NCBI GenBank assembly: GCA_949358305.1
Contig: OX442314.1
Location: forward strand, 1,736,001-1,800,000
Length of the DNA: 64,000 nucleotides
Reading direction: 5' to 3'
From: Strigamia acuminata
Taxonomy: Eukaryota
In this document: positions 3,957-61,189 of the stretch, piece by piece
Layout of the letters: each line of letters opens with the position of its first letter
Numbering within the stretch: position 1 is the stretch's first letter
Position numbers and translations under genes: made by a program
The notes under the pieces: generated by a model
What the model was told of the DNA's origin: nothing
Database searches by the model: none
The model's input: only the letters and a program-made list of their open reading frames with translations

Positions 3957-6900
3957 ATGCGTGTGTTTCACCCATTAGGCCGAATTCAACAACTAAGGAG
4001 GAGAAGACTGCAACACATTGTTGTCACTGTCATAAAAGAAGAATCGGAGATACCACCATTTGCCAAATCTCTGAAAAACATTTCAAAAAAGAAAAAATTT
4101 AATTATTATCTGTTTTTCGCATTACTTATTATCAATTTGGCAGTTTGCATTTACCAAACTGTAGATCGGATATTGTATTACATGGATGAACCGACAACAG
4201 TCAATGCGGATTTCATTGAAACAGTGCATGGCATTTTCCCGTATGTTTACTTTTTCCCATACACAACTCAAGAATTTAATAATTTTGGAGTAAAAGTGAG
4301 TGGCAGAAAACAAGATCTTGAAAGCTGTGATGGTAGGAGTATAGCCGAGAGAAGATATGCCGATACAAATAATTTTAAATACCAGTATAATCTACTTGAT
4401 GTTTTCAAATACATGAGTATACCGAGTTACATAACTGATGCACACTTCAAAATGGTAAAGCTCTATCTATTTCTTGTTCTTAGTTTAATAAATGAGCAAT
4501 CCTATTTCAGGGAAAATTGCGCATTAATCTAACAATTCAAAATTACGATAGTTTTGTACAAGCTACTGCTCAAGTTTCAAGTCGTACGTAAAAAAAAATG
4601 CATTCACGATTTTTATTTCTAAATCCTTTATTGTTGATTAGTATTGCAGCTCCCATATGGATATTCTGATTACAAGATGGTAATCAAACTAAAATTCCCA
4701 GCAAAATGCAAAATGGTTAATGTATGTTTACAATGTTGCCGAAGTTACAAAATTTGTGTAGGGCCATAACTGTTAGACTTGTTCTTAAAATTTTCAGGTA
4801 AAAATAAATCCTTCACCGGTCTACTATTATGCAGCTGGTTTTATTGAAGGAGTGCAATTGTTACTGAATGCAAAAAACATTGCAACCATTCATAGAGATA
4901 GAGAAAATTTGAGAGCAACTAGACATAGTGCTACAACTAATTTGGAAAAAGTAAGATGCATGTGCAAGGAATTTGAAATGCGTCGCAGGATCTTATTTTA
5001 ACTTTTTGGGGTCCCTAACATACGTTTTAAAAAATTAAATCTAAATTTCGTACTTGTAGAGTCACGGATTATTTATTTTAATTTGCTAAAATTATGGGGG
5101 CGTATCCTTTTGACACCTGGCCCAATTCTTCTGTCTTTTCAAATACACGGGCAAACGTTGATGGGTAGTTGCAAAAACGGTACGCCAGCCGCAGTTTCTG
5201 CACCCAAATCAATACTACCACACGTCAAATTAAAGGGATCCTTTTGGACACAGATATAAATACTGTTCCAGATTTTCTTGAAATTAAATATCACACAAAG
5301 GAATTCATTTGAAACTTAACAAATTTACTTTCAGTATCACTTTCTCCGCACGAAGAGAAATCCTTGCGATAACAATTTACATGGCTGTTTGCTCCCTTGT
5401 TTCATGAAGAATGTTACTTGCAGGTAAATTTGTATATGCTTAAACAAGCTAAACATGAAAATATAATTGCAGTCATAAAAATAGTGTTCAAGTTAGCTTT
5501 GAAATGAATGTTTTTGTTTTGACGACCAGAAACAAGTGAAACCTACGATGTTTCAGGGATATTTTGAAAGCTTTATATTGACCATCTGTTCAATCAGTTA
5601 TGGTGTTCACAGTTGTGATACACAACACCACAATGAACAAAAACTTCCCATCTGTTTAACTGTTTTAAGTTTGTTCAACCATTGAGATTCACTATATCAT
5701 ACTAAAGTCATTTGATAACTTTAGTTCCTTTTACATTATGATGCATTAAACATCATAATTGAAAGAAGTAAAACAGTTGACCACACTTTCCAGAATCCAG
5801 AGTTCAATTTTTTTCTCCATGTTGCTTCAGTTATTTAGCCTAACTGTTTTAATTGCTTGCTGTGCATCAGCTACCTATTCATTCTAAAGAAACATGAATA
5901 AAATGTACTGTATCTCAGGTTTCCATTTTACGATGCAAGAAGCCTACCAGAATGCGAGAATAATGAACTAAAGCGTCAACGTGAAAAGTGGATGAAATCA
6001 ATTAAAAATGATAATGAGGATGCAATAGAACTGTGCAAATGTCCTCATTTATGCCATGTGACAGAAGTGAGCACATCCTTCGATACAATACCCTATTCTG
6101 AGAATATCCTCGATGTTTCTCTTCTGAATAAGTTCGTTCGTACATTGCAAGAACAATTTTTTTACGACATAATCTCTCTGCTATGCGACATTGGCGGAAA
6201 CATCGGACTCTACTTCGGAATGTCTTGTTTGACACTCGTCGAAATATTTGTTCACTGCTACAAAATGCCTTCTTTAATGTTCAGAAAAAAAAATAAATCA
6301 AATTCAGAGTTAAAAGGAAAAATTCAAGCAATTCTAGAAATTAATAAGAAAACGCACAAGCGAAGCAAACTGATAAAGATTGTGCTACTATTTCTGATTT
6401 TCACATCGATTTACCAAGTTTATGCTTCAATTGATCATTACTTTGATTATCCAATCATCAAATCAGTTATTCTGGCTAGAGACAAAATCATTCAGTTTCC
6501 ACGAATTGTACATTGCCGAGAATCTGAAGAAATAGTAAAAGTCAAGGAAAATGTAAGTGAACAACTACACTATGATGTTCGCCATTACAAGCTTTATTAC
6601 TTACTCCATTCATCGTCGAAATTCGCAAACAATTCTCTGGAATTATGGAAGGCCTCTTCTAATTTAGAACGCCATTATACCGAACTCCAAGTAAGTAACA
6701 AGATTGATTTTCCTTTAAATGCATTCATTGCTCAATTTCACATTTTTAAACAAATAGCTATTTTTATAGATGTTCCATAAACTTGGTAAATCTTTTGATG
6801 TTGTGCTTTACGGCAATGTGTCAGCTGTGTCAACCGTATTTGGAAACTGCACTGAATTTAAAAAAAGTAAGGTAAATACAAAACAAATTATTGTTTTCTC

Positions 6901-7734
6901 ACTTTTAAATGTTTACAGTTGATCTGCCTTATTCTCCGCACAAGAACCATTTAATTGTAACCTATTCCTTTCGTAACATTTTCAAATGGAATGTGAACCA
7001 ACCAGTGAGATCTTCCGATATTTTTATTTCATTCAGTTGATTATTTGGATTGCATTCATTCTAGAACTTCATTCTACCACAGAACCAATATCTTCACCCG
7101 AAATATATTGTTTACACACCCAGTATGGGTTTTGTTCAAATTTACATTTCTCGTAAAACGGTAATGTTTGTACTAAAAAATTCACTATGGTATTTGCAAG
7201 TTTATCCCTTTTAGCTGGTTCGAATAAACACTCCGAAAAACCCTTGTGCAGCAAATGATCGAGTATCAGAATGTGAAGAAAAATGTTTTGCAGGGAAGCT
7301 ACAGCTACAACCTTTCAAGTGCAAGTGTGTTTTCAATGCATTGGTTTGCATATTAGACAATTTGACTGGTAATCACAGTTTGTTTTACTATTAGATTGCC
7401 ATTTATGGAAACGAGTAAGATACCTTTGTGCATGACCACTGAAACGGCCGAAAAAACTGTTAACATGTATTTGGAGGCTCAATTCACGACAGATCCACGC
7501 AAAGACTGTGACTGTCCAGCTCGCTGTGAACAAACAATATTCCTATCTTCAGTACAACAGGAAATGAATAGGAAGTTCCTCAGCAGAAATACATTCACGA
7601 TTTACAGCAACATTCGAGAAATAATTGCAGAAGAGAAACAACTTTCCATTGTCAAATTGTTTTGTCAAATGGGATCAATCATTGGAATTTTTACCGGTCT
7701 ATCAATATTTGCACTCGTCGAATATTTCATATGA
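3957..7734 (+). CDS. Tandem double-domain DEG/ENaC (pickpocket/ASIC-like) channel, gene A, ~797 aa
   Basis: Exons 3957-4454, 4511-4583, 4642-4721, 4798-4950, 5335-5423, 5919-6690, 6770-6866, 6919-7004, 7065-7160, 7215-7324, 7395-7734; all GT-AG, 2394 nt, no stops. Two TM1 (RILYYMDEP; SIDHYFDYP), two Cys-rich thumbs (CKCPHLC; CDCPARC), two TM2/filters (LLCDIGGNIGLYFGMS; LFCQMGSIIGIFTGLS). Confidence 0.9.
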
Positions 7735-7858
7735 TTGCAAAGCAATGAAATAATTCGTAGAACAAATACTTTTTTTTCACTCTTTCAACTGAATCCTTCA
7801 CCTCATAATGCACAAGTTCTTCTTTTTAATTAATTGAACATAGGAAAATTATGACGTA

Positions 7859-8187
7859 ATGCAGTTTTTGGCCCCACCCACAAAAAGAAACCTACAAATT
7901 ATTAAGAGCACTACCAAACAATATTTGACGACTCAATTCAAGACAGATCCCCAGAAAGACTGCAAATGTGCGGCACGCTGCAAAGAAACAATATTCGTAC
8001 CTCTATTTATTCAACTAAGAAAAGGGACAGGCAATTTGATAACATACGGTATTGACAGCAACATACGAGAAGTAATAGAAGAACAGAAAGTAATTTCATT
8101 AGTCAAATTATTTTGTCAAATCGGATCAATTTTTAGTATTTTGAACCAGTCTCTCAATATTTTCACTCGTTGAATATTTCATTTGAA
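7859..8187 (+). pseudogene. Degenerate tandem duplicate of the last exon of DEG/ENaC gene A
   Basis: TQFKTDPQKDCKCAARCKETIF...SLVKLFCQIGSIF versus AQFTTDPRKDCDCPARCEQTIF...SIVKLFCQMGSII. A 1-nt insertion near 8143 shifts the TM2; the shifted frame reads TSLSIFSLVEYFI*. Confidence 0.8.
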
Positions 8188-10545
8188 TTAAAAGTCAACA
8201 AAACCACTCTTCAACTATTCAATGTATTTCTGTACAAGTAATTCTATTATTTCACTTCTCACAAACATTGTGTTTGTGTCTTGTAAAAGTATAGAATAAA
8301 TATATAAACGTATAGGCCAGCCCCATTTAATGCATGTTACATGTGTAGCTGAGTATCAGTAACAAATAACTTACATAGTCTAAGCACATTTAACACCAGC
8401 TGCATTCGTAATGTAATTTTAAACTTAGTGTTGATTTTAATGTCAAAAACTGAAATGTATTTCATCTCGAATGTACTAAATTATAAAATAAATTCTTGTT
8501 GTTTCATCTTAAGTATTAGTTTGAGGTTACTGAAGCATCTGAAAGACCCAAACTGAGGACATCTCAAGAACAAGAACCCAAACGAGAAATATCTTAATTG
8601 TAAAAATGAAATAAACCATTTTAATATGAAAATAAACTTAATGACAAACAAGACACAAGATGTTAGAAGTCTTATTTTCTTATTTCCAAATTAATAACAA
8701 TTAAGCAACAAAATATTTGTAAGCAATTTCAATATTTCTAGTGTCAGTTTCTTTCAAAATGCAATTTGTATCATTTGTCACCAGTGACCATTAGTTCGTG
8801 AATTAAATTCATCAACACGTTCACCATGCCTGACATGTTTCATTGGCAAAAATTGACCAACATTTTGAGAATTTATACCAAAATTGGTCGTAATTTAAAA
8901 AATTTAACTGAATTTCTAGAAAAATTGGAAAAATAATTACCAAAAATTTCAGATAAGTTCAAGTTCAGGTACTTGAATAGTTTGTGTGTGAACAGCTTAC
9001 AGCGAACATGAGCTTCAACACGTTCCCAATTCCATGAACGAGTTGCAACACTGCTTCTTACACACTAACAAGCAAGTGACCATTCATCACAAACAATGTG
9101 AGTAAATTTGGCAAAACAATGGAATCACCCAAACGCCCACTCTGTTCCCATCGTTCCACAACACAATTTCGCCCACCAGGAATTGTAAAAGTGTAGAAAA
9201 TAAAAAGAAAAAGAAACTTACCGGTACTTACCTCATTAAATTACTGAAATCTGCCAGCCTGCGCATAAACTCCACAACGGTCGATAAGAAGAGGAAGTTT
9301 ATAATGTCATTGTCTCTATCTTGGATCTAGCCACTTTATCACATCACCAGACGATGTGCTCAATAATTCACATAATCAACTAAAAAAAAGAAAAAAACAA
9401 TCAATTAATCAATCAATCAATTAGCAACAAATCACTGACCATCACCAACTATAAAAAGCAAAAAATCCCAACTGAGTCAAATGACGTTTAATTTTGGCTG
9501 ATTGGGTAGGATCGGGCGTTGATTTGAAGAATGTAGCGCACTCTTCAAACTGATGCGATTTGTTTTACGTACAAAACAACTCTCGATAAAACTGTGCTCG
9601 CTAGAACCAGACACCAGATTTCTAGCTAGGCTTTTTGGTTTGTTGTGGCCACTCAGGCTGGGTCGAATGACAGTGGCCGAGCGCGACGAGTGTTGCACGA
9701 ATGTCCGAGTTTACTTCGAGAGCTCTCGAGATCGAAACCCGGGCTACGTCCGTCAATTCTTTGAACAGAAACTTTCGGTAGTCTCTGAAAACAGTGCTTG
9801 ATCCGAATCGCAAGTTGTTGACGAACAGTGCCATCGTTTTTACATTTCTATACCACGTTCGCTTCTCGAGAAACGACGCCATTAAAGGCCAATTCGAGTT
9901 TACGGAAGAGTATCGGCGACATGTCGCACTTTTATTTTAACTTGATAAAATATCTCTGATAATTTTTATCGTTTAATTTGATTCGATTTAATCTTTTTAA
10001 ATAATAAAATATTTAAAAAAAACTATCAAACAGATTTGATTTATCAAACCATATTTTATCAAATATCCTTAATAGGCCTCCGTATATTTCAACGAGGCAT
10101 TCAATGCAAATGATGATGAAATTCGTTACGAGATGTCTCTCCCGCATCGTTTCTTCCCGTTCATTGGTCACTGAAGCGAATCGCTTACCGGTAATAAATA
10201 TGAAAATATGAAAATAAATCATTCATTGCTAGATTTGAAAAATATACTACCAGTTTGTCACGTTTCGCCAACTTATTAAATGGACAAGGGATAGATTACG
10301 AAAATGTCACGTCAGTGGCATGATTTAAAAAAATTCTCAAATTTATTAAAACTTTTTGACAAAAATTGGAGATAAATTTGTACGAGTTGCAAAAATTAAT
10401 TTTTTTTAAACAAATTGGGAAAATTAAATTTCACATCGCTTATTTCGACAAATTCGAGAATTTTTTAAAAAAAAATATGCAATTATTTCCTGTATTGTGA
10501 TTGGACTGCAGCGTTACTACGACTCGCTTCTGTTGCTATGCACTA

Positions 10546-27886: not shown

Positions 27887-30800
27887 TGTGAAAATCGGAT
27901 GATTTTACGCGTGAATTATTATTCGAGTTTCATTTGTATTGTTGAATTTATATTGTTATTTTGTATTTCCATTTTTTATTTAAGATTTTGATATTTGAAT
28001 TTGTGATTTTGCCAATTTGTTATAATATGTCTTTTATTCTCATTTGTATGTTTTGACCTGTTCATTTTATTGGAATCCTAAATTGTTAATCCTTTTTAAT
28101 CCGTTTGCATTCCTCCACCTGAACACGTCATTCCCTTACCTTGCGGACGCTTGTGATTGGTTCTCCGAACTCGGGATTTGCATTTCCTTTTCCCTTTATG
28201 AATAGAATAAAATCAGTGTACTTTTGCTTTGTAAAACGTGTGGTTGTGCTTCTTTACTGCTCCGACGCCATTTTGAAACTTCAATTTAAACATCATTTGT
28301 AGCCAAGGACTTTGGAAATTGTGTGGTAAATTTGTAGGAACATTTATTTCTCTTCAAGTTTAACATTGGTGCCGAAACCCGGGAGCATTTTAAATTCCGA
28401 TTCTGGATCTAGCGAAAAGCGACCAAGAGATCGACGACACCGTACAAGCACTCGACGCACTGGAAGACCGTTTGGCCGCATCAAGAGCTGATTTAGGCAG
28501 GTACATTCAACTAAATTACACCCCTAATCTACCCCAGAACATACGACCGAACGCGGACGCGCAACCGGCGGACATCGACGCACTAGCGGCGGCCATTACC
28601 GCAGCAGTGACGGCGGCAACACCACGCGCAACACCGACGAACGGTCAAACGTTCATCAAACGTAAGCCACTCGAAATGCCGAAGTTTGACGGACGTAAAC
28701 CGGAGGAATGGGGAGGTTTTTGGAAGACATTTTCCATTCAAGTTGGCGACGACGAACAACTGGATGGAACCAACAAATTGCTATATTTGAGAAACTATTT
28801 GGTCGGCGACGCGTTAGACGATATCAAGGCACTGGAAATCACCACAGGAAACTACGAGATTGCAATTACGCGCCTGCAAAAGAAATATGGCGATAAAATC
28901 GTTCTCGAAAATAAGTATCTGTCGAATTTGTTAAACTTGCCCTCTGTCAACAGCGATCGAGACCGGATGGGTTTACAAAAACTCCACAGACACGTGGAAG
29001 TTAACATAGAAAATTTAGCCAACATTGACGTACCTTTGGCAGAAATACAGCGGACCATTTTCCCCGTGCTGTCGTCGGCTGTTCCGCGCAGTATAATCAT
29101 GGAATATGACAAAGACTGCGACGGGGAGAGGTCAATAACAAAGTTGATGGAATGGTTGAGCGACTACCTCGCCAAACACGCCAAGTATGACATGCTGAAA
29201 ACCCAATCGAAGCCAGATGCGTCTCACAACAAAACGTCGGACAACAATCCCCCCAACAAAGGACGATTTGGCCGACAAGAAAAGGAACCTCGATCGGGAT
29301 CGGCGTCGCAACTGTCAGTATTAATAATGAAATGTCAATTTTGCGATTCCACAGAACACAATCGGAAAAGATGCCCGCTCACGATGGAGGAGAGACGTAA
29401 AGGACTGCAGAAAAAAGGGATTTGCATGAGATGCTTGGGGAAAGTGCCCCACAAGACGGAAGAATGCAGAACTCGCATGAAATGCTACAACTGCGAGGGA
29501 ACACATCACACCCACGTGTGCGACACACCAAAGACTACGGAAGCCAGCGAGGGAATCACCCACACCAACGCAGTCGTCACCGCCTGTCCACCCAAGTCCG
29601 AATTTTTGATGGTGCAGATGGTGAAGATGGCTGGACCAACGCACTCAACTTTGGGAGTGTGCTATATCGATGGGGAAGCCCAACGCACATTCATACGGTC
29701 TGAATTGGTTAAAAAACTGAATTTACGAATTTTAGGAACTGAGACAATCAATTTGGCCGTGTTTGGACAAGAGCCCCGATCAGAAGTACGCAACAGAGTT
29801 GAACTAATACTCAGCCCCGCCAATTCGAAGTCGCCAGCCGTCACGATTGAAGCCATTGAAGCTGCCCACGTCACGTCCACCCCCGGAGAACAGCCGAATA
29901 AGCAACTAAAAGCAGAATTACAACGAAGAAAAATCGAAGTGGCCTGCAAGCAAGTCGCGTTACATTCGAAAGAGGTGGACTTACTAATTGGAGTGGACCA
30001 TTATTGGCGAGTGATGGCGGGACAGACCGAATTTTTGGAAGAAAACTTGATTGCCGTAAAGACGAAATTTGGTTGGACGTTACACGGACAGACCACAAAC
30101 GGAACGAGAGTCATTGCTGCACCGGTGAGAATTAATCAAATTACGCTTACTCCATCGACAGATGATCCTTTGCGCCGGATGTGGGAGCTGGAACCGATCG
30201 GAGTCCGCCACGAGTCAGTCGAAACCAACGACGACGTTGAGACGTTGAAAAAATTCGAAAAGACCATCAAGTGGACGGGATCAAATTACTACATGCCACA
30301 CAGCCCAGTAATCAAGGAGTTGGTGACTCCAGAAATAAGGGAAAAATCGAAAACTGAAGATTGGAGACACGTAGCGGGAATAGAAAATCCTGCTGACCGC
30401 CTGACGAAAGGAATGGACGCAGAAGTGATGATAACCGACTTACTTTGGTGGCAAAGACCGAATTGGCTACGCGGAAGTCGACAAGATTGGCCAAATTTGC
30501 CCACAGATCCGGTCGAAGAACATGACGACGAAATTGCGGAAATCCACGTCGAGGCGGTGCAGACAACGACAATTAATATTTTTCCGTTTGACAGGTTTGG
30601 ATTGCTGTCAAAGGCAATCCGAACGCTGGCATGGGTTTTTAGATTTGCTGACGATGCTGGAAAACAACAAACAGATGCCAGCCGACGCGATCGAGGTCCA
30701 TTGAAGGCAATCGAGCTGAAACATGCAAAGTTCAGTTTGATCAGAATTGCGCTAGCAGAAGTTTATGGCCGAGAGATCGAAAGAATGAAGGATGACAAAT

Positions 30801-32079
30801 CGGTTCATGGAGAGTCAAAATTGCGAGATCTGAATCCACAGCTAAACGAAATTGGACTGATTAAGCTACGAAATAGACTACATGAGTCGCGAGATTTGCC
30901 CACTGCTACTCAACCTTTAATTTTGCCTCCTAAACACAAACTTACAGAACTAATTTTGCAATTCTCACATTTACAGGTCCTCCATTGCGGACTGACATCC
31001 ACGCTATTCAAGTTTCGAGAAAATTACCGGACACCATCCGCAAGGAGGACCTTGAAGACGATGTGGGATCGATGCGTTGTTTGCAAGAAAATCAACGGAC
31101 AACTGATGCGGGAAGTGCCAAGTGCCCTCCCAGCCGACAGAACGTCAAAAGATCAACTGTTCGCGGTCACCGGAGTCGATTTCGCGGGACCAATAATAGC
31201 AGTTCACTTGGAATTGGTGCCCTCACTAGCAACGACAGACTTTTTGGGAACAACAGACAATCTCGAACCAACTCAGAAGCAGTTTATTCGACAATGGCGC
31301 TACCAACAACGCGTATTACTCTCATTCTGGAATCGTTGGTCTCGGGAGTATCTGACAGATTTAAAATTTCAAACGGGCAAATCAAGCGTGCGAGAACTTC
31401 AGTCGAACGACGTCGTTATAATTGAAGAGCCATTTAAACCACGTCTAAAATGGAAAATGGGTAGAGTGGTCGAAGTTAAGCGAAGTCGAGACAACAAGAT
31501 CAGATCGTGCGAACTGACACTCGCCAATGGAGAACATTTGCGTCGACCAATACAACGTCTTGTGCGTTGGAAGTGGAGTCAAACAATCCCCGCCCGGCAG
31601 TGTGAAAATCGGATGATTTTACGCGTGAATTATTATTCGAGTTTCATTTGTATTGTTGAATTTATATTGTTATTTTGTATTTCCATTTTTTATTTAAGAT
31701 TTTGATATTTGAATTTGTGATTTTGCCAATTTGTTATAATATGTCTTTTATTCTCATTTGTATGTTTTGACCTGTTCATTTTATTGGAATCCTAAATTGT
31801 TAATCCTTTTTAATCCGTTTGCATTCCTCCACCTGAACACGTCATTCCCCTACCTTGCGGACGCTTGTGATTGGTTCCCCGAACTCGGGATTTGCATTTC
31901 CTTTTCCCTTTATGAATAGAATAAAATCAGTGTACTTTTGCTTTGTAAAACGTGTGGTTGTGCTTCTTTACTGCTCCGACGCCATTTTGAAACTTCAATT
32001 TAAACATCATTTGTAGCCAAGGACTTTGGAAATTGTGTGGTAAATTTGTAGGAACATTTATTTCTCTTCAAGTTTAACA
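27887..32079 (+). mobile_element. BEL/Pao LTR retrotransposon, internally deleted (RT/RNase H and integrase core missing)
   Basis: 479-bp LTRs 27887-28365 and 31601-32079 (TG..CA, 2 mismatches seen), TSD ATTGT, PBS TGGTGCCGAAACCCGGGA (tRNA-Phe). Confidence 0.95.
28472..31705 (+). CDS. BEL/Pao polyprotein remnant: DUF1759 Gag, Zn knuckles, protease, partial RH/IN
   Basis: MPKFDG..W..FW..F, CQFC/CMRC/CYNC knuckles, YIDGEAQRTFI, WRHVAGIENPAD, GVDFAGP, FWNRWSREYL, RRPIQRL. No YxDD motif. First ATG at 28676. Confidence 0.9.
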   Translation: MAASRADLGRYIQLNYTPNLPQNIRPNADAQPADIDALAAAITAAVTAATPRATPTNGQTFIKRKPLEMPKFDGRKPEEWGGFWKTFSIQVGDDEQLDGTNKLLYLRNYLVGDALDDIKALEITTGNYEIAITRLQKKYGDKIVLENKYLSNLLNLPSVNSDRDRMGLQKLHRHVEVNIENLANIDVPLAEIQRTIFPVLSSAVPRSIIMEYDKDCDGERSITKLMEWLSDYLAKHAKYDMLKTQSKPDASHNKTSDNNPPNKGRFGRQEKEPRSGSASQLSVLIMKCQFCDSTEHNRKRCPLTMEERRKGLQKKGICMRCLGKVPHKTEECRTRMKCYNCEGTHHTHVCDTPKTTEASEGITHTNAVVTACPPKSEFLMVQMVKMAGPTHSTLGVCYIDGEAQRTFIRSELVKKLNLRILGTETINLAVFGQEPRSEVRNRVELILSPANSKSPAVTIEAIEAAHVTSTPGEQPNKQLKAELQRRKIEVACKQVALHSKEVDLLIGVDHYWRVMAGQTEFLEENLIAVKTKFGWTLHGQTTNGTRVIAAPVRINQITLTPSTDDPLRRMWELEPIGVRHESVETNDDVETLKKFEKTIKWTGSNYYMPHSPVIKELVTPEIREKSKTEDWRHVAGIENPADRLTKGMDAEVMITDLLWWQRPNWLRGSRQDWPNLPTDPVEEHDDEIAEIHVEAVQTTTINIFPFDRFGLLSKAIRTLAWVFRFADDAGKQQTDASRRDRGPLKAIELKHAKFSLIRIALAEVYGREIERMKDDKSVHGESKLRDLNPQLNEIGLIKLRNRLHESRDLPTATQPLILPPKHKLTELILQFSHLQVLHCGLTSTLFKFRENYRTPSARRTLKTMWDRCVVCKKINGQLMREVPSALPADRTSKDQLFAVTGVDFAGPIIAVHLELVPSLATTDFLGTTDNLEPTQKQFIRQWRYQQRVLLSFWNRWSREYLTDLKFQTGKSSVRELQSNDVVIIEEPFKPRLKWKMGRVVEVKRSRDNKIRSCELTLANGEHLRRPIQRLVRWKWSQTIPARQCENRMILRVNYYSSFICIVEFILLFCISIFYLRF

Positions 32080-32326: not shown

Positions 32327-32617
32327 AGCCAAGAGAGACGAAGAAAGTTCGAGCGCCGTTCGAATGTGAGCGGAAAATTCGGGTGAAATTAGGAAAGAAA
32401 AAAGCGCGGGAGATACGATTGGAGAAATTTGTGGAAATCTTGCGAGGCCGAGTGAATGTTGGTCGGTCGCAGTTGTTGTTGGCTGAAAAAGACGACAAAA
32501 GTGTCGGTTTGAATGGATGCTCAAAGTGAAGGAGCGACATCTGCCGATTGAGAGCCGGGAAGTGGAGAGATGGCGGCGAAACACAAAAGTCAGAGCAAAA
32601 TCGTGACGAAACTCAGC
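32327..32617 (+). pseudogene. RNF8-like exon-4 fragment
   Basis: MLKVKERHL...KHKSQSKIVTKLS matches 18095-18197; frameshifted. Confidence 0.75.
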
Positions 32618-34023
32618 CAAATGGCTAAAGGAACCCGAGGAAACGCCGTTCAACATCCCGGAGGAACAGAACGTGGACAAATACGACGAACTACTCAATG
32701 ACGTGGAGGTGGTTAGCAAAGTCGTTCGGAACAAGAGCCGGGAGGAGATCCTCGCGTATTTGGAAGCGTTCCACGCGAATCCGGACCGAGTACGCATCGT
32801 GATCGGCGAGTTGCTCGGAATGAACGGGCCGGCGCCGTTTCCTGCATCGAATGACGTTCGGAGCTCCGGAAATGATGGGGCGTCGCCTTCGGCCGAATCG
32901 ATGACGATGGAGAAAGTCAGATCGATTTTCGAGCTTTTCCCGGACGCGGATCCCGAATATCTGCGGAAATTCGTCGAGAAATGGGCAGACAATGTGAATC
33001 ACATCAACGCGACGGTCTACGGGTGGATGGACAATCGGTCTCGTCCGAAGTTGGCCGAAGCTCGAAGAGCGGCGACTAAACGGAAAATTGTGGAAAGGTT
33101 TTCTTGTAGTTTTGTGTATTTTTATAATAATACAAGAAAAGGTTTTTATTAATGTTTTTCGTTTTGCAGCGATTTCAGCGTGGAGGAGTTCTTGGAGATG
33201 TTTCCAGTCGCGGAGAACTTTTTCAACAATGATGACAAGAGTCACGACTGTTTCGTACAGTGGAACGCGTATCAAAACTGGTTCTGGCAGAACCAGTTTC
33301 GATACGCATTCCACGCCGATTAGTTGAAAGTGATGCATAAACACCATTTCTACCTCACGCCGGTCATGAAGGAGCCGTTTCCCACATTTCATTTCAAAAC
33401 ACATTCAACCCAGACATTCTCCTCTACTTTCTTCGTCTTCTTTACTCAACGTAACCCCAGAAATCATGGCAACAAGTGCAACGACCAAAAGTATGCCGAC
33501 AATACCTGCAGTAGCAACGATAAACTTCTTACTGAAACGTTTCCCAACAGACGGTGAACTAATCAATTAATCAATTAATCAATTAATAAATAATAAACCT
33601 AATCGATTTATTCGATTAATGCAGAACCGCGAGCAAAGAAGACGAAAAAGACCGTGAGGACAAAGAAGTTTCCGACTCAACGCGTGCCCATGCCGAAACA
33701 AATCGACGCCGAAAATCGGTGCCCTAACATTCAACTTGCCTTGGCCCTTCAATTTTTGGCGACCTGCACCAAGGCCCCGGCCGATAGTGCCTGCTCCAGC
33801 CCCAGGGCCGTTTCGACCTATGAGGCGAAGAGGCGGCCGCCAGGTGGCCATGCCGTGGTACGTCACTTTACCAAGGCATGGCCACCTGGCGGCCGCCTCT
33901 TCGCCTCATAGGTCGAAACGGCCCTGTCTAGCCCCCTTTCTTTTTGAACCACCTGCGTCTGACCACGATCTTTTTGGGCAACCTGCGCCGAGGCCACGTT
34001 GTCGTCGTGATCGTCGTTATTAA
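32618..34023 (+). pseudogene. RNF216-like N-terminal and C-terminal fragments lacking the RBR core
   Basis: DKYDELLNDVEVVS...ELFPDADPEYL (CUE-like); DFSVEEFLEMFP exon with frameshift and stop; MPKQID exon; Pro/Arg-rich tail. Confidence 0.8.
33803..33926. mobile_element. 124-bp palindromic hAT-type MITE
   Basis: 58-bp arms (1 mismatch), 8-nt loop, CAGGGCCG termini, 8-bp TSD TCCAGCCC/TCTAGCCC. Confidence 0.9.
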
Positions 34024-34835: not shown

Positions 34836-37800
34836 CTACCAATCCATATCTTGATTCCGATACCAATTATAAGTTTTTAAAATCAAATTGTACAATGACA
34901 GTAGTGACATTCCCAAACCTAGTCCTACAATGCTACCGAAATCGCTTAAGAACTGAGATATTGGATATGCTTGTTTCTCTTCTACAATCTCTACAGAGCT
35001 ATCAGCAAATTGCAACAATAGAATTGTAATCTTATCTTCTTGATAATTACTTTCCCGAAAAGTACTTTTGTAAAAAATATGTTTGCAAGGTTGTTTACAT
35101 TTGCATTGTTTTTGATTCGAGTCAAGATTGCTTAAATACGTGAAATGAGCGGCAGTTACGGCACTTGTAGTGTTACATACTGGCGAATTAGGTTTTCCCA
35201 TGTACGGTAATCTGAAATCAAGAGGAGATTTCTCAAAGATGCAAATGGTTGCAGTTTATCTGCTGAAAAGGGTTAGGTGTTTTTCGAACAGATTCAATCT
35301 GGTGATGCAGCAAATGAATCTTTAATCGCTATCATGTCAAAACAAGCTTGCAAGTTTGTGTGTGGTTAATGCTAGTGTAATGACCCATTGCCAACTGATA
35401 ATTGACCGTGGAGTGGCTGATCAGTCAATGTTTAGAACAGCGAAAATGAAAATAGATGTGATAAAATTGGAGCTGATGTATGAAAAGAAATGTTAACTAC
35501 TTGTATACCTGCATTTAACACCTCGAAATACATTGTTATGCCAGCAAGCACTTTTACACTTGAGATAAGCACTTTTGGCCTCTTCACATGGATTGCGCTT
35601 TCTATTTCTTCTTAGGATCTATTTCGTAAAAGGAATCTTAATATAAGCATTGATATAATTTATTTCATTTTCTACCTGAACGTCTCGAAGTACTACTTCA
35701 ATGACAGACGTGTTGTTTACATTGTTTACGGTAAATGGTGTCAAAATGTTAACTCCCTCTTCCCGATTATTTATGAATAGCTGCGTGTTATTATAATCCA
35801 AAATATTTATATTAATAATTAATACTGTTTGTGCACAAAAAATATTTTTTCTCTTCAATTAGGAATAATTGTGTACCCGATCAAAACACAAACAATATTT
35901 ATAACTTTTTTCAGCTTTGGAGTAACCTAAAAACTTTATTTGCTTCTTTGTGCTTGAATAAATACTAAATAGACATTCTCGTTATCTTACTGTATTTAAG
36001 AATGCTGCTTAAAAAGGCACAGAGACTGACAATTTAACACAGGGGTCAGCAAGTAAATTTAAGTAGGGTCCGGATACTATTGAAAATTTTTATTGAGGTC
36101 CAGAATAAAAAAACTCATAATACTTATTAGTTTTAAATTTCTTACTAAAAACCTAAGAAAACGGTGAAAAAAACAATTAAAAACCGTACTAAAACCTAAG
36201 AAAACGGAAAAACACATAAAAACCAAATAAACACACACAACCCAAAAAATACCAATAAAACCTAAAAAACACGGAAAAAAAAAACAGGAAAAACAAGAAA
36301 AAACACAGAAAAACCAAAGAAACCGAGGGGAAAACGTCGCTAAAATGTCACCTCTAATTCCGAAAACAATATGTCGCTAAAACGGACGTCGCTACACTGA
36401 ACCTTTCCGTATTTGGCGGTCCAAGTTTCGACCTACCGCCGTCCGCCTGTTGCAGACCGCTGATTTAACACATTCCATTTTGTTTGAAAAATTTCGGTTG
36501 ATGTCGAGTGAAAATGTTTTTTTACACACCTTTAGCTGCAGATCACAAGCTTCTGAAGGAGTTCGATGTTTACTACACTCAATGTAAAGTTTGGTGGTAT
36601 TTGTGCTTGTTTTATCTGTAAGTCAGCGAAAAGGTCAGAATTAATTTTCAAATTCGTCTGCAGAAAAGCAGTTTTTACAGTTAAATAATTCCAAAAAAAA
36701 AGAAACATTAAAAAATCTCTGAATTCAAAAGTAGACTTTGAATACAACCATTAATTAACTAAAATCAGAAAATAATTTTGTAAATTACCATTCCTTATTT
36801 GTGAACAATTACCAAATGGAAGTGAAATAAAATTAGTTGATGGTACCTGTAAACATAAAACTTGTATTGTTTGGTTTTTGTTTGAGGAATATCACTTATT
36901 ATATTACATCATTCTTATTACGGGTATCAATAAACGTTAGGTCAATACTAAGTGATTCCCAGATGTTTTGCAATGACAATTTGCTGTTAAACAATTGCCA
37001 GGGTGATATGTTGCCACAAGTGTTTTTGGGTTGTTTAAGTAAGTGTAATCGAGCTTTGTGCATTTTTTCGTCCCATTTTTCACCACAAACTGTGACAGAA
37101 GGAAATTCGGTGTAACGTCGTTGACTTATTCGAATGACTGTTGTACTTGGTTCATCAAGGTAGTAATTGATACGACTGTGCAGACAATACAAAGTAAATC
37201 CTGCAACAACTAATACGAAAATTAACTTCAGCTTTTCTAAGACTGTATATATTTTGGTTTGCTCTTCAGTCTCATGAACTTTTTTTTTGCACATTTCATA
37301 CAGACGCCTAATCTTATTGATGGATCTTTTTCGGTGAATGTTTGATGCAACATAATATAAATACCAAATAATGTCAGGTAATGAGATTACGGATAGTCCA
37401 ATAAACAAGCCCAGATTGCCTCCTAAATCTGATAGTAAGGCAATAACGTCATATGAGTACCGTTCTTCATACACAGTGACCTTCTCATCAGTTAATGCTA
37501 ATGTTAAACTCATCGTTTTATTATTTTTAGCTATGCCTAAATCAGTATACGGTGTAAAAGTTAAATGTTGACAAGGACGTTGACATCCGCAATGAGCAAT
37601 TGGTTCATGAACTGTAACCAAGGACAGAACATCAGAATACGTGTATTGTGCATCATTTGCTAATTTGCAAAGTGGCAAATCTAACTTCATGGATGGAAAT
37701 CTTGTATACAAGAAATTTAATCAGCTGTTTAATTGTGATACCAAACAAGAAGCCTTTTCACTACATGTTCTTACCTGCATTTTAGCTTTTTAAATTCGTT

Positions 37801-38894
37801 ATGTAAGCAATTCCGATAGCATTCTCTGTATTCATCTTCGTTAGAGCATGAACTGATCGGTGAATTTTGCAATATGAACTACAATTGAATAAATTAAAAG
37901 GTGTTGCCCAGGAATTTCAAGTCCTTAGATAAAACTTTACTTTGTTACAACTAAAATTTATTGTAGATGTTGAACCAGGATTCATCTCTGATACAGGAAA
38001 GTAATTTCCAACGTTTTTGAATGCCAGCAAAACCTAAGGGCAAAGAGGAAAAAATTAATGTAGCAATTGCTATTGTAATTTATAATCAAGTTACCCCATA
38101 ATAAGGCTTATTGCATATCAAGTCGTAATTTTTTTTTAAATTCACTGTCAGTAACTTTCTGACAAATGATTTGCTAGAAGCTTCAGCTATGTCAATGAAT
38201 AATATTAGTGTAACAATGTAGGTATTGATAAATGCTTGTTTGTAGTTACCAAATCGAAATGTTGAACATATTCCGAATGTACTGTCAGTTTCCGTCTGAA
38301 CAATAGAAGTATTTGAATATCCCTATGCAAATATATTTTAAATTGTGATTTTTAACTGAATTTCTCTACTGTTTTTTTTTTAATTTTAATTTTTACTTTC
38401 ATTTTTACACTGTCGATGTCATCAGTATTGTTAGTTGCTTTCCAAAGTGTATCCATATCGTAAGTTGGGTTTTTAATACTCATTAGTGCATAAAGCATGG
38501 ATTGGCATGTAATGGATACTGATGTTTTTTTATTTGCTATACGAGTTTCTTCCCAAAGCCTATTCATTTTCTTTGTATCTGAACTACAAACCATTAAGTC
38601 TGGTAAAGTAACATTTTCTGATCTACTGGTTACGTCGACAGCTGTAGGATAACTGAAGTAATGCATTATTCTTTCGTATGTCTGATATGTGAGCATGCAC
38701 ATGCAAAATGTGAATAAAAGCAGCCAAAGGATGTGATGTTTGCTCCTCCAACGTTTCCTACTGTTTATGAAATCTTCCAATCCGATTACATCGCAGTTGG
38801 GTTTGTTGGCATAATCCTTCATTAATTGGTGAATTGTCAGACGGAGTTGTCTTTTCCCTCTTCTGTATCTCCACATCAAACTATTATTCTGCAT
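34836..38894 (-). CDS. Tandem double-domain DEG/ENaC channel, gene B, ~795 aa
   Basis: Exons 38894-38397, 38322-38250, 38186-38095, 38033-37941, 37878-37775, 37700-36908, 36846-36789, 36615-36530, 35780-35676, 35618-35509, 35211-34836; 2388 nt, no stops. TM1 RIMHYFSYP / RINYYLDEP; LPDLMVC / FPSVTVC; FGIC / FGNC; TM2 LLSDLGGNLGLFIGLS / FLSDFGSIVGLGLGMS. Confidence 0.9.
36040..36462. mobile_element. hAT-type MITE in intron 8 of gene B
   Basis: TIR CAGGGGTCAGCAA / TTGCAGACCGCTG; perfect 8-bp TSD ATTTAACA. Confidence 0.85.
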
Positions 38895-39065: not shown

Positions 39066-39665
39066 AAATTTTGTCAAATTTTTCAAAAATTTGACAAAAT
39101 TTTTCAAAAATTTGACAAAATTTTTCAAAAATTTGACAAAATTTTTCAAAAATTTGACAAAATTTTTCAAAAATTTGACAAAATTTTTCAAAAATTTGAC
39201 AAAATTTTTCAAAAATTTGACAAAATTTTTCAAAAATTTGACAAAATTTTTCAAAAATTTGACAAAATTTTTCAAAAATTTGACAAAATTTTTCAAAAAT
39301 TTGACAAAATTTTTCAAAAATTTGACAAAATTTTTCAAAAATTTGACAAAATTTTTCAAAAATTTGACAAAATTTTTCAAAAATTTGACAAAATTTTTCA
39401 AAAATTTGACAAAATTTTTCAAAAATTTGACAAAATTTTTCAAAAATTTGACAAAATTTTTCAAAAATTTGACAAAATTTTTCAAAAATTTGACAAAATT
39501 TTTCAAAAATTTGACAAAATTTTTCAAAAATTTGACAAAATTTTTCAAAAATTTGACAAAATTTTTCAAAAATTTGACAAAATTTTTCAAAAATTTGACA
39601 AAATTTTTCAAAAATTTGACAAAATTTTTCAAAAATTTGACAAAATTTTTCAAAAATTTTTGTCA
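39066..39665. repeat. 21-bp tandem satellite (GACAAAATTTTTCAAAAATTT), ~28 copies
   Basis: Essentially perfect array, ~170 bp upstream of the gene B ATG. Confidence 0.97.
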
Positions 39666-51200: not shown

Positions 51201-51476
51201 AGCGGCGAAAATCTCATCAAAACTTGACAAGAAAACACAAAAGTTCATAACAGTTGATGGATTCAATTTGTACTCATCTCTCGTCGCCAATTAATGTGTT
51301 CTCTGCAGTTGATGTCTCGATAAAGTTGGAAATTAGTGCTTGTTAGTTAAGAAGCAGCCATGTTTGATGGTGGAATTAACATAAGTGTTTTATTACGTGA
51401 ATTAATACAGGGGGCGCTCGTGTTAGCGGGCGCGTCACAAAATAACGATAAAATAAAATGGAGTCGGAACACTCCA
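48299..51476 (-). mobile_element. Ty3/Gypsy LTR element 2, Gag-protease only, chimeric 3' LTR
   Basis: LTRs 48299-48482 and 51295-51476; PBS TGGCGACGAG; PPT AATTAAGGGGA. ORF 51139-49274 with Gag, CHGCGIEGHIKPIC, MEIDTGAG; no RT/IN core; no TSD. Confidence 0.9.
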
Positions 51477-51810
51477 AGATGTCTTCTTAAAACCCCACTT
51501 TGAATGCACGAATAATCACACAAATGGCACTTGAATGGTTTTTCTCCTAAATGGGTTAATCGATGACTCTTTAAATTTCCATTTTGATTGCAAGAATAAT
51601 CACATAAATGGCACTTGAATGGTTTTTCTCCAGTGTGAATTCGCATGTGGACAGTCAAGTAAGTTTTAAGTCGAAATGAAAGTGAACACATTTGACATTT
51701 GAACGGCTTTTCACCAGTGTGTTTAAGCATGTGCTGTTGCAATCGGCAAATGTATGCACAGGAATAATCACACAGATTGCAATTGTAATCCTCACGTGTT
51801 CTCTTGATTT
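51477..51810 (-). pseudogene. Third zinc-finger copy, truncated by Gypsy element 2
   Basis: Four fingers homologous to 11365 onward; ATG replaced by ATC; cut at RRH|LTR. Confidence 0.85.
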
Positions 51811-52186
51811 TTTTTTACTTTAGTGACAATGACACTGAAATGAACGTAGTCTGAAATGAAAAAAATAATACTAATTAGGTTCGATAACTATATAGGACAC
51901 ACTTTAAATAATATTGGTATGTACAACAGAAAAAACGCGGAAAAACGCTAATGGGTCGAATTCAGTTAGGCGAGTTAGGCCTAACGTTCGATGCACGATT
52001 GCTCTTAACTTCATAAACCGTAAAAACATCCAATAATACCCCAAAAAAATGTGATTTATCTACTCTCCTATCTTTACCCTGATCTGCTTACACTTTGGAA
52101 GCTTTCACACGTAATAAACATGCATTTAATCGAGGAAGAACGAAAAAGTCGATAAACCAAAATACAATAAGATAGAGCAAACGGCG

Positions 52187-52844: not shown

Positions 52845-53422
52845 ATGTGCACAAAGTGTACACTCGTGGCATTCACTTTGCAAGTGTTCTTCTCAAGTTT
52901 AAGTTCTTTTCAATCAACAGATGAAAGCTACGTAGCGGCTTACAATCCTGCAACCCAAATGTGTTGCTCCGCCAGTGTTTCCAACATTCTCTAATTCGTA
53001 CCACAAGTGTTGCGGATCGTCCAAAATAGATGAAAAGAGACAGGTTTGCTGTGACGGCAAAGCGTATCCTTTGAAAATCGGCATGTTCAAACAAATTTGT
53101 TGCGAGGACAGCGTTTTTAGTCGGGTTCAAACCCAAACACGTTGCGGGAACAAGCTTTACGACTCTGGGAAATACATTTGCTGCAGGGGTGTTGTCAAGA
53201 ATATCACGGATCAGGGCTCGGAAACTCATTGTGGTTACAGCGATGACGTAACGTAACTTTACTCGTGCAAAAAATGAAAAACAAACCAAACAGATTTTAA
53301 TTATTATTACTATCAGATGTAATATACCGAGCGCGATGTGTAGTTGTCAGCACGAATGCCCGTTGATATTACTACGACAAGTTGATGGCCCAAATTGGCT
53401 AGTCAGCATTTTCAGTGGATAA
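52845..53422 (+). pseudogene. Secreted galaxin-like Cys-Cys repeat protein with one frameshift
   Basis: Hydrophobic leader MCTKCTLVAFTLQVFFS; repeats YNPATQMCC, HKCCG, RQVCCDG, QICC, CGNKLYDSGKYICC; frameshift ~52973; probable second exon from 53317. Confidence 0.6.
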
Positions 53423-53994
53423 ACGACGCGATTTACTGTAAACACAATGGTTTGCCTTACTTACATAAAGCATCAAAGAACAAAAATTTGTCTCTATTTT
53501 TCGAATTGACACACGTTTGGTTTAAGTTTAAATTTATTTGCTGAATTTGATTCTGAATTTTAACCTTTACCTTGAATAATTAGAGAAATTAATTTTTTGG
53601 GTCAAAAATTTAATTGTGGGCTTTTTAGTAGTACACTGGAGAACACTGCAGTGTATAACAAGAATTGTTGCACAGGAAAATCGCATCAGTACCTGTATTC
53701 AAAAATTAAAATAACAATTTTAGTTTAAGTGTATTTTAAGTTTTAACATGGGTTTAAACCGGAAATGATGTCATTTTTGGTTTAAAATTTAAGTAACACA
53801 CAAAATATTTTAGTTTTTGAATGCAGCTAGTGTTTTCTTTTACCATGTGCTACCATTCACAGGTATCATAAATTCTAGTTAAATTGGCAATGGTTTGTCA
53901 AAAGTGGATGATCTCGTCATTCTGAACGAGTTAAAACCGATGTTGACTTCATAGGTTAAGCATGTTGTCGGATTTGTTTAAATTCTTTTACTCG

Positions 53995-54350
53995 GTCGTG
54001 ATTGGCTGCACCTTGTGATTCTTCCACGGTCACGGGATACGATATGACGTCGTAAGTCATCAAAAACCCAACTGTATCGTTGATGCACGCTATTTTTACC
54101 AGACGCAAGGATGCGTCGCACTTGGCGGGAATTGTTTTTCATTTTCACCTTCAAAAGTGACTGCAGCGGAGAGAGAGAGAGATAGAGGTCCATCTGGCGG
54201 CGATAAAATGAAGCAGAAAACCGAGAGATTGGAAAAGGAGTTGAAGCGCGTGCAGTGTGAATTAAGCCAGCAGAAGAGGAAAGCCGAGGAAACGTTGAAA
54301 CAAGGCTGAAGGAGAAGGAAGAAGAATTTGAAAATAAAATGGCCAAAAAA
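53995..54350 (+). pseudogene. Internally deleted RNF8-like copy (promoter, part of FHA, coiled coil)
   Basis: Stitched matches to 17090-17150, 17412-17468 and 17660-17870. Confidence 0.85.
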
Positions 54351-54381
54351 AATTTCTTTATTATTTTCTATTATTTTTCTA

Positions 54382-57300: not shown

Positions 57301-58275
57301 TAAACAACAATAAACTCTACTTTAAAAGTAATTCACACTGTATGACCATTGTTGTTTATTTGACCAGACGGTCACAATTTGTTACTTTCGTTTGATTAAT
57401 TCACCGTCAGTGGGGGAAACGTTCCAGAGCGCATTCATCTCTTTCATGATGGGCGTGAGGTGAAAACGGTGTTTCTCCATCACTTGCGTCAAATCGTTTT
57501 TGTACGCGTATCGGAACTGGTTACTGACGTAGCATTCGACGTGCAACCGGTACGACGCACTCACGACTCGGTCGTCGTTTTTGAAGTAGTTCTCCGGGTC
57601 TGGGAACATCTCCAGAAATTCCTCAACGCTGAACTTGCTGCAAAATAAATTCGGGGAAAATGATGACAAAAATCAATACAAACAACGACAAGTCATGAAA
57701 AAAAAACATTAAAAGCACTTTGTTCATAGGAACACTATCAAACGAAATAAAATAGACAAATTAAGTTGAAAACCTTTCGACCAATTTCCGCTTGACCGCC
57801 GCCTTTTGAGATTCGGCCAACTTGGGATACGAACGACTTTCCAACCACCCGTTAACCGTCGCGTTTATGTAATTCACATCGTTCTTCCATCTCTCCAGAA
57901 AAGTGCGCAGGTATTCGGGATCAGCATCCGGAAACAGCTCCAAAACCGAGTTCACTTTCTCCATCGTTGCCGACACGTGGTTACTCTTTTCGGTCGAAGA
58001 CGACGCGATTGCTTGCGGTCCGTTATTCCCGGCATTCGGGGCTGTGTTCGTCACAGGAAACGGCGCCGGCCCGTTCATTCCGAGAAACTCGCCGATGACT
58101 AAGCGCACCCGGTTGGGATTAATTTAGGACGAAATACTTCTGTGATGTCGTTTCTTTCAACTTCCTGCTGTGGCGCGGGCGCAACGGCAATCATGCCGGG
58201 AATGTACGAAATGTCGTCGTTGTCATTGTCATCGTCGCTGGTGTAGTGGGATTTAAAAAATTTAACTTTTTTCAT
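54382..58275 (-). CDS. RNF216: RNF216/TRIAD3-like RBR E3 ligase with a 59-Glu tract and hydrophobic C-tail; deletion across intron 1/exon 2
   Basis: Exons 58275-58137, ~58115-57774, 57637-57405, 55888-55754, 55697-55262, 55204-54962, 54910-54382. RING1 ECSCC...QCTDGHLFCRSC, IBR CPHC...CLNPEC...CRLC...H...C, RING2 CPKC...EHGCNKMTCTCG...CYVC with the catalytic Cys. Confidence 0.85.
54490..54666 (-). repeat. GAA/GAG coding repeat (59 Glu)
   Basis: 177 nt, largely 9-nt GAAGAGGAA units. Confidence 0.95.
56095..57249. mobile_element. MITE-like intronic insertion (CACTGGAAAAAAAA termini)
   Basis: Inverted termini; TSD unclear. Confidence 0.55.
56553..56625 (-). mobile_element. tRNA-derived (SINE-head-like) sequence
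   Basis: A-box TAGCCTAGTGG and B-box GGTTCAATTC at tRNA spacing; poor stems. Confidence 0.5.
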
Positions 58276-58950: not shown

Positions 58951-58954
58951 AGCA

Positions 58955-60699: not shown

Positions 60700-61150
60700 C
60701 GATGAAAAGAGGTGAATTTTTAAAATCCCGCCACAGCAACGACGATGGACAACGACGGCGACGACGTTGCTGATCGTCCGTCCATTCCCGGCATGATCGC
60801 CGTTGCGCCCGCGCCAGATCGTGAAATCGACACTACACAAGTATTTCATCCTAAATTAATCCTCACTATCAAACAAAGTAATTAAAAGGGATTTAATTTA
60901 TATGTAAGAAGTAGCTACGATCGTTAACACCCTTCGTGAGCTGTATTGGGATTTCGTGGCAGATCCGAACGAGGTTTAAGCGTTGCTTGAATCAGAGCGC
61001 AAATCCCAACAGGAGGGGAACATCGTGATCGATCGATCGGATGCTTACCAAATGGCTGAAGGACCCCGAAGAAGCGCCCTTGAACATCCCGGACGAAAAG
61101 AAAGCGGACAAATACGACGAATTGCTCAACGACGTGGAGGTCGTGAGCAC
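60700..61150 (+). pseudogene. RNF216-like exon 1-2 fragment
   Basis: PSIPGMIAVAPAP, intron, then ...DKYDELLNDVEVVS; stops and frameshifts. Confidence 0.8.
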
Positions 61151-61189
61151 ATAAAATAAACAAAACAAACCAAATAACTAAGCTATAAA

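What the first reader, a model, noticed from the sequence alone, without database searches (positions are those of the whole stretch)
34836..38894. Second, highly diverged double-domain DEG/ENaC (gene B) indicates a conserved family
Seen: the same architecture on the opposite strand ~27 kb away. The junction exon 37700-36908 holds TM2 (LLSDLGGNLGLFIGLS), a ~38-aa linker and a new TM1/FPSVTVC. It has 11 exons with the same phases; exons 1, 2, 8 and 10 have the same lengths as in gene A (498, 73, 86, 110 nt) although the proteins are very different. Both genes are intact amid pseudogenes. Inference: an old fusion kept by purifying selection, i.e. a subfamily of tandem channels.
Basis: partly seen in the sequence, partly recalled or inferred. 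Interest (0 to 1): 0.88.

Follow-up and report, generated by a model that had tools for sequence, protein, structure and literature searches.

The report
Two-in-one DEG/ENaC channel gene family
This gene, likely from a centipede, joins two DEG/ENaC ion-channel subunits head to tail in one reading frame, a join also present in four Strigamia maritima gene models, and its protein would likely fill two of the three slots of a channel normally built from three separate subunits.

Summary
Confirmed. Gene B (38894-34836, minus strand) models as 11 GT-AG exons encoding 795 aa with two DEG/ENaC units, as does gene A 27 kb away. The fusion lies inside one exon: TM2, a 40-aa basic linker, TM1. Four Strigamia maritima models, 43-50% identical to B, keep the same junction at nearly the same length, so this is a multi-gene centipede subfamily, not an annotation slip. 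All four halves of A and B keep the TM2 GxS motif. The closest solved relatives are the single-unit centipede antennal channels BRTNaC1 and PDPNaC1. Best reading (inferred): a natural two-subunit concatemer filling two positions of a trimeric cation channel. Against a simple 'purifying selection' story: contigs of two DNA-like runs show many 85-99% copies, with 27 of 33 displayed coding changes non-synonymous, one a stop. One origin for A and B is unresolved. Expression, assembly and range beyond Strigamia are untested. Six literature searches found no natural tandem DEG/ENaC.

The parts
34836..38894 (-). Gene B, predicted 11-exon, 795-aa two-unit DEG/ENaC
   Evidence: GT-AG, one terminal stop; Pfam ASC in exons 1, 6, 11
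38397..38894 (-). Exon 1: N-terminus, degenerate re-entrant-loop segment (IG where HG is usual), TM1 of unit 1 (about 38676-38732)
   Evidence: ASC match from profile position 4 at aa 33; N-terminal aa 14-50 58% identical to P0001
37775..38322 (-). Exons 2-5 (38322-38250, 38186-38095, 38033-37941, 37878-37775): ectodomain of unit 1
   Evidence: aligned to P0001/P0003
36908..37700 (-). Exon 6, the junction exon: thumb end and TM2 of unit 1, linker, TM1 and start of ectodomain of unit 2
   Evidence: same junction in P0001, P0003, P0004, P0005
37352..37465 (-). TM2 region of unit 1 (aa 366-403) with GGN and GLS
   Evidence: 72% mean identity among B-type proteins
37232..37351 (-). 40-aa basic linker (aa 404-443), predicted cytoplasmic and partly amphipathic-helical; no HG motif
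   Evidence: helix only from low-confidence models
37085..37231 (-). TM1 of unit 2 (aa 444-470) and post-TM1 FPSVTVC (aa 486-492)
35509..36846 (-). Exons 7-10 (36846-36789, 36615-36530, 35780-35676, 35618-35509): ectodomain of unit 2
   Evidence: aligned to P0001/P0005
34836..35211 (-). Exon 11: thumb end, TM2 of unit 2 (about 34878-34952; GSI and GMS), short C-tail, stop; AATAAA 22 nt downstream
3957..7734 (+). Gene A, second two-unit DEG/ENaC (junction exon 5919-6690), about 23% identical to B
7844..8194 (+). Partial, frameshifted duplicate of gene A's last exon (73% nucleotide identity over 281 nt)

Best explanation
Gene B carries two DEG/ENaC subunit units fused in one reading frame, and its protein likely acts as a natural concatemer whose two halves would occupy two of the three positions of one trimeric, likely sensory, cation channel. 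Shown: two ASC units, four hydrophobic helices, an open in-exon junction, conserved in four S. maritima models. Inferred origin: tandem duplication of a six-exon gene, then loss of the first stop and of the spacer, merging the last exon of copy 1 with the first exon of copy 2 (intron phases 0,1,0,0,2 repeat twice). Inferred topology: N-in, C-in, so the lysine/arginine-rich linker lies in the cytoplasm, probably as a helical hairpin from TM2 of unit 1 to TM1 of unit 2. Inferred assembly: the third position is filled by a single-unit DEG/ENaC or by one half of another tandem chain; the fusion fixes order and ratio of two unlike subunits and gives an asymmetric pore (GGN in unit 1, GSI in unit 2). 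Inferred function: a weakly selective cation channel of sensory neurons, by likeness to BRTNaC1 and PDPNaC1; the stimulus is not predicted. The family expands and decays by birth and death, so this particular copy may be under relaxed selection.
For: Two ASC stretches in one exon. Junction span from the GxS serine to the post-TM1 tyrosine is 77, 77, 77, 77, 76 residues in five B-type proteins and 72 in A. K+R 10-15 against D+E 1-6 in the linker window of all six. No methionine shared across linkers and best linker splice donor 4.0 against 3.5-10.8 for real ones: no sign of a built-in single-unit product. GxS present in 4 of 4 halves; thumb cysteines kept. Unit-2 ectodomain is as conserved against P0001 (47%) as unit 1 (46%). 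Only 1 of 12 displayed indel rows is coding, in the last three codons, with 55% of the stretch coding. Engineered ASIC concatemers form working trimers (PMC10329638, passages). PDPNaC1 lacks HG yet conducts (PMC12714832, section 10).
Against: No RNA, protein or current data. Two does not divide three, and no partner subunit was identified. TM2 of unit 2 is seen only in window genes A and B, because all four S. maritima models end before it. HG is missing in all halves and unit 2 has no recognisable pre-TM1 segment (ASC match starts at profile position 26). Displayed coding variants among recent copies are 27 non-synonymous: 6 synonymous, with one stop. The engineered concatemers keep native tails plus 19-residue linkers, longer than the 40 aa here.
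Confidence: 0.5

Rival explanations
1. Three tandem chains build two linked trimers (six units), or a chain of cross-linked trimers, with no separate partner subunit.
For: Solves 2-into-3 without a partner; both halves keep pore motifs; no close single-unit relative appeared among 6 hits of 30-446 aa.
Against: A 40-aa linker that is largely helical (low-confidence models; amphipathic moment up to 0.83) is short for bridging neighbouring trimers (inference). The search is word-limited and the genome was not available, so a partner may well exist.
Confidence: 0.2
2. Only one half forms the pore; the other is a tethered accessory, regulatory or cleaved-off unit, as with UT-A1, whose two-unit construct yielded trimers largely of its N-terminal half.
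For: Unit 2 lacks the pre-TM1 segment and has GSI for the usual GG(N/Q/V); A's unit 2 also has Q for the conserved TM2 aspartate. PMC10541013 (passage) reports the UT-A1 precedent. P0003 and P0004 end just after the junction exon.
Against: Unit 2 keeps GxS, the TM2 glycines and thumb cysteines in both A and B, which are about 20% identical. The short S. maritima models are automatic and may simply read into intron 6.
Confidence: 0.17
3. The fusion is real and was functional, but gene B is a recent copy drifting towards a pseudogene.
For: Many 85-99% copies (2622 records laid in X1; 11 contigs at one coding position), one with a stop; omega about 1.2-1.7 on the displayed rows. At several sites all listed contigs differ from the window by an amino-acid change, e.g. 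aa 290, where the other three halves have an aromatic residue.
Against: The 2388-nt frame and all 20 splice sites are intact despite insertions in introns. Only 40 of 573 substitution rows were displayed, chosen by support, and they mix several copies. Coding indels are depleted. Fast ectodomain change is also expected of sensory receptor families (own knowledge).
Confidence: 0.1
4. Two neighbouring single-unit genes, or an assembly artefact, misread as one.
For: Erroneously fused gene models are common in tandem arrays (PMC5952958, passage). P0001 itself begins with a spurious-looking near-identical partial repeat.
Against: No stop, intron or conserved start between TM2 and TM1 in six sequences from two species, with linker length fixed to within 2 residues (38-40 aa); a contig in X2 spans 37226-37411, i.e. 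the linker.
Confidence: 0.03

Closest known systems
BRTNaC1 (heat/proton-activated, 431 aa, PDB 8YMR/8YMW/8YMX) and PDPNaC1 (421 aa, PDB 9JF7), Scolopendra antennal DEG/ENaCs
   Same: Top PDB matches to P0001 and to the junction profile (E 5e-11 to 7e-10; 6e-17 to 1e-16). Compact units of about 370-420 aa. PDPNaC1 also lacks a canonical HG motif (PMC12714832, section 10).
   Different: They are single-unit chains ending shortly after TM2; PDPNaC1 is a nine-exon gene and a homotrimer (section 7 and abstract). The match is mostly thumb end and TM2, so gating by heat or pH cannot be transferred.
Strigamia maritima T1JEH2, T1JEG4, T1JGJ4, T1IYF0 (uncharacterised UniRef models)
   Same: 43-50% identical to B over aligned residues, 44-58% to each other; all carry the TM2-linker-TM1 junction.
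   Different: All are incomplete automatic models without a name or TM2 of unit 2; none is annotated as tandem. Orthology to B is not established.
Engineered ASIC concatemers
   Same: Head-to-tail linked subunits form functional trimers (PMC10329638 and PMC6497441, passages).
   Different: Artificial, three units, native tails plus added linkers; here natural, two units, 40-aa join.
UT-A1 urea transporter; K2P, TPC and Nav/Cav internal repeats
   Same: Natural duplication and fusion of channel subunits. UT-A1 is a two-unit chain in a trimeric family (PMC10541013, passage). K2P, TPC and Nav/Cav are recalled, not from a call.
   Different: K2P/TPC/Nav repeats divide evenly into a four-fold pore; in UT each unit has its own pore (recalled). 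In DEG/ENaC the pore lies on the three-fold axis, so two units cannot complete it.

Membership tests
DEG/ENaC superfamily (each half) | Pfam PF00858 ASC above the curated cut-off (23.6 bits) | tested here: met
   B exon-level pieces 47, 72.7, 58.8 bits and 27.6 for the start of unit 2. A: 59.1 and 28.4 pass; its two TM1-side pieces score 19-20.6, under the cut-off.
DEG/ENaC superfamily (each half) | Two TM helices flanking a large ectodomain | tested here: met
   Four hydropathy peaks per gene, two per half.
DEG/ENaC superfamily (each half) | GxS motif in TM2 | tested here: met
   GLS, GMS (B), GMS, GLS (A): 4 of 4. Motif per PMC8438182 (passages).
DEG/ENaC superfamily (each half) | Cysteine-rich ectodomain (thumb) | tested here: met
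   31 Cys in B, 25 in A; thumb cysteines align in all four halves. The GxC of the GxCxxFN motif is present in B1, B2, A2 and absent in A1.
DEG/ENaC superfamily (each half) | Pre-TM1 HG motif (common, not universal: 43% of 578 insect PPKs; absent in PDPNaC1) | tested here: not met
   No HG in any of 4 halves; B1 has IG in the aligned segment, B2's ASC match starts at profile position 26. That IG sits at the profile's HG position is my reading from recall of the motif.
Canonical DEG/ENaC subunit (whole chain) | One unit with two TM helices per polypeptide | tested here: not met
   Two units, four TM helices, no stop between; definition per PMC9822975 and PMC10148893 (passages). Filed as a variant, not a canonical subunit.
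DEG/ENaC superfamily | Trimeric assembly, cation current, amiloride block | not testable with these tools
   Needs expression and electrophysiology.
DEG/ENaC superfamily | Hand-shaped ectodomain fold | tested here: inconclusive
   My models have mean pLDDT 41 and 40. The Atlas model of P0001 (pLDDT 0.51) aligns to ASC clusters at TM 0.50-0.63 by target.
BRTNaC1/PDPNaC1-type centipede channels | Clade membership, antennal expression, heat or proton gating | not tested

The most novel reading that the evidence does not exclude
Geophilomorph centipedes have an expanded, old family of natural two-subunit DEG/ENaC concatemers: the first pseudo-heteromeric chains in a channel family with a three-fold pore, assembling either as 2+1 with a free subunit or as pairs of covalently linked trimers, with a built-in asymmetric pore and the re-entrant HG loop replaced by the linker.
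Probability: 0.6. Interest if true: 0.87.

Novelty: new variant of a known kind. Interest (0 to 1): 0.74.

Why it matters
The reviews and structure papers I read describe DEG/ENaC/ASIC subunits as two-TM chains that trimerise. A natural two-unit chain does not fit a trimer evenly, so it poses a direct, testable question of stoichiometry: 2+1, or linked trimers. It would give a natural template for fixed-order heteromers and show what a 40-aa join does to the lower pore and the HG loop. It also suggests that gene-family pipelines, which split 'erroneously fused' models, and the truncated S. maritima models have hidden a receptor subfamily in blind soil centipedes, whose Scolopendra relatives use such channels for heat and acid sensing.

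Tried and rejected
No whole genome is held, so no genome-wide copy count or partner search. No RNA holder listed: no evidence either way on expression. Variants were seen only as the displayed rows of one read layout, so a linker-specific dN/dS is left open. The sensitive HMMER search of 1.84 billion representatives never ran, so range outside Strigamia rests on three word-limited searches (2, 1 and 6 hits). AlphaFold2 on 6- and 8-row alignments gave pLDDT 41 and 40: not used as evidence, no fold search run. Complex prediction not run: only incomplete models could be submitted and a pass would follow from likeness to solved trimers. Metagenome scan: 1 of 374 candidates confirmed, an unrelated intronless single-unit DEG/ENaC of about 590 aa (L001). 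Atlas feature searches listed only 378-485-aa ASC clusters in the rows shown; a blank there shows nothing. Domain tree of 15 rows (P0005 unit 1 left out as too short): B-type unit 1 and unit 2 each form starred clades; A's halves are long and unplaced. Four-way site patterns 5:2:6 give no overall support for A1+B1 / A2+B2. Alternative splice donor or internal start in the linker: no support, with a matrix trained on only 20 donors. Earlier scan findings: nothing in 3 look-ups.

Full report
Observation. Reading the minus strand and gene A, I built both exon models from coordinates. Gene B has 11 exons between 38894 and 34836, gene A 11 exons between 3957 and 7734. All 20 introns are GT-AG, phases are 0,1,0,0,2,0,1,0,0,2 in both, and each gives 795 aa with one terminal stop. 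The exon-1 match depends on the start codon and on offsetting indels. For internal exons, 3 of 8 same-position pairs match against 0 of 16 other pairings (p 0.028, post hoc). The models are predictions; no spliced read was available.

The fusion. Exon 6 of B (37700-36908) is open in one frame only and yields two Pfam ASC stretches: thumb end and TM2 of unit 1, a 40-aa linker, TM1 and FPSVTVC of unit 2. Hydropathy gives four helices per gene. The phase series repeats twice, which fits duplication of a six-exon gene with the last exon of copy 1 merged into the first exon of copy 2 (inference). The four halves are only 18-25% identical pairwise, so both the internal duplication and the A/B split are old.

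Relatives. The junction exon found 2 proteins among 2559 candidates of 462-2000 aa: S. maritima T1JEH2 (51% over 95% of the query) and a single-unit butterfly protein. A search among shorter proteins gave 6 hits of 2623 candidates: three more S. maritima models and three weak fragments. All four S. maritima models carry the junction. The span from the GxS serine to the post-TM1 tyrosine is 77, 77, 77, 77 and 76 residues in the five B-type proteins and 72 in A; mean B-type identity is 72% in TM2, 39% in the linker, 59% in TM1. B and T1JEH2 are 44% identical over 704 aligned positions, 46% in ectodomain 1 and 47% in ectodomain 2. The organism is therefore likely a centipede related to Strigamia (inference). 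All four models are incomplete and none reaches TM2 of unit 2. No split single-unit orthologue appeared, but these searches are word-limited and the sensitive search never ran.

Copies and selection. Two runs of one study hold the stretch (word shares 0.56 and 0.36; none on record as RNA). Their contigs cover introns as well as exons and none of the 15 joints shown (of 47) matches an intron, so they behave as DNA. In X1, 2622 records were laid: 539 at 99% or more, 750 at 95-99, 938 at 90-95, 395 below 90; 11 contigs (8 in X2) cover one coding position. That is more than two alleles, so B has many recent paralogues, provided the runs are of this species; depth is not a copy number. Of 40 substitution rows shown (of 573), 33 are coding: 27 non-synonymous including one stop, 6 synonymous. 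Neutral expectation is 21-27% synonymous, so the rows fit omega about 1.2-1.7. This tells against amino-acid constraint among recent copies. By contrast only 1 of 12 indel rows shown (of 49) is coding, in the last three codons, with 55% of the stretch coding (p 0.001; 0.006 after dropping the four rows in a repeat). Both subsets were chosen by the tool for support and mix several copies. The picture is a birth-and-death family with long-term constraint on frame, linker length and TM2, and fast or relaxed change elsewhere.

One origin or two. B-type unit 1 and unit 2 each form a well-supported clade; A's halves are long branches. AU tests reject neither arrangement (position-wise p 0.36 and 0.38; gene-wise p 0.08 and 0.13). 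Site patterns are 5:2:6. Local features lean to one origin: shared exon lengths, linker 38 against 40 aa, and GSI in TM2 of both second units against GGN in both first units. I put one origin at about 70%.

How it likely works. DEG/ENaC subunits have cytosolic ends and assemble as three (PMC9822975, PMC10148893, passages), so a TM2-to-TM1 join is topologically allowed; the linker is strongly basic in all six proteins. All four halves keep GxS. None has HG; B1 keeps a degenerate pre-TM1 segment, conserved in T1JEH2, whereas unit 2 does not. In ASIC1 the HG loop lines the lower pore under a domain-swapped TM2 (PMC7308080, passages); that the swap brings the TM2 end near a neighbour's TM1 is my recollection and would suit a short linker. 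PDPNaC1 lacks HG and conducts with broad selectivity (PMC12714832, sections 7 and 10). I therefore commit, at 0.5, to both halves lining one pore with a third subunit from outside; linked trimers 0.2; one active half 0.17; decaying copy 0.1; artefact 0.03. That the junction is real and has been translated I put at about 0.9. Structure predictions were too weak to help.

Comparison. The best PDB matches are BRTNaC1 and PDPNaC1 from Scolopendra antennae, single-unit chains of 431 and 421 aa (PMC9974506, passages; PMC12714832). Each half meets the sequence tests for DEG/ENaC except HG, which only 43% of insect PPKs have (PMC8438182, passages); the whole chain fails the one-unit architecture, so it is a variant. 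Linked ASIC subunits work when engineered (PMC10329638, PMC6497441, passages). The nearest natural parallel I found is UT-A1, a two-unit chain in a trimeric family (PMC10541013, passage).

Novelty. Six full-text searches listed no paper on a natural tandem DEG/ENaC; I saw listings and abstract starts. The S. maritima genome paper (PMC4244043) and two arthropod chemosensory surveys (PMC5850775, PMC5952958) have no ENaC mention in their main text; PMC5203786 and PMC8438182 have no 'fused' or 'fusion'. PMC8438182 notes 46 of 578 PPKs with three to five predicted TMs without discussing tandems in the passages seen. I read no supplements, and subscription papers are not covered, so an earlier mention cannot be excluded; two-domain database entries elsewhere were not surveyed.

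Verdict. Real, conserved across species, apparently undescribed architecture in a much-studied channel family; function and stoichiometry untested. New variant of a known kind, interest 0.74.

Noticed in passing
window 27887-32079: LTR retroelement with 99.6% identical 479-nt LTRs and one 1103-aa ORF (DUF1759, integrase zinc finger, DUF5641; BEL/Pao-like by recall); no reverse transcriptase or integrase core hit, so likely a recent, internally deleted copy.
   Followed up: partly
window 39076-39659: Perfect 21-bp tandem array, 27.8 copies at 100% identity and partly self-complementary, ending about 180 nt upstream of gene B's start codon.
   Followed up: no
window about 36000-36480: High-copy repeat inside intron 8 of gene B (summed depth over 100,000 in X1); accounts for the 749-nt intron.
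   Followed up: no
window 1-1300, 32500-33400, 54800-63900: Several 70-85% identical copies and fragments of an RBR-type ubiquitin ligase gene (IBR and RING hits); RNF216-like by recall. Intactness not checked.
   Followed up: no
window 17411-18613 and 53988-54367: FHA plus RING gene (RNF8-like by recall) with a partial second copy.
   Followed up: no
window 11362-12153, 16240-16418, 51347-51881: Three related C2H2 zinc-finger arrays.
   Followed up: no
window 52936-53256: ORF with galaxin-like cysteine repeats (E 9e-10).
   Followed up: no
P0001 residues 1-164: The S. maritima model starts with a nearly identical partial copy of its own exons 1-3, suggesting a very recent tandem duplicate or an assembly duplication beside the gene.
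   Followed up: partly
L001 3009-4907: Intronless single-unit DEG/ENaC with an intact HG motif on a 6.3-kb metagenome contig; unrelated to the tandem family.
   Followed up: partly
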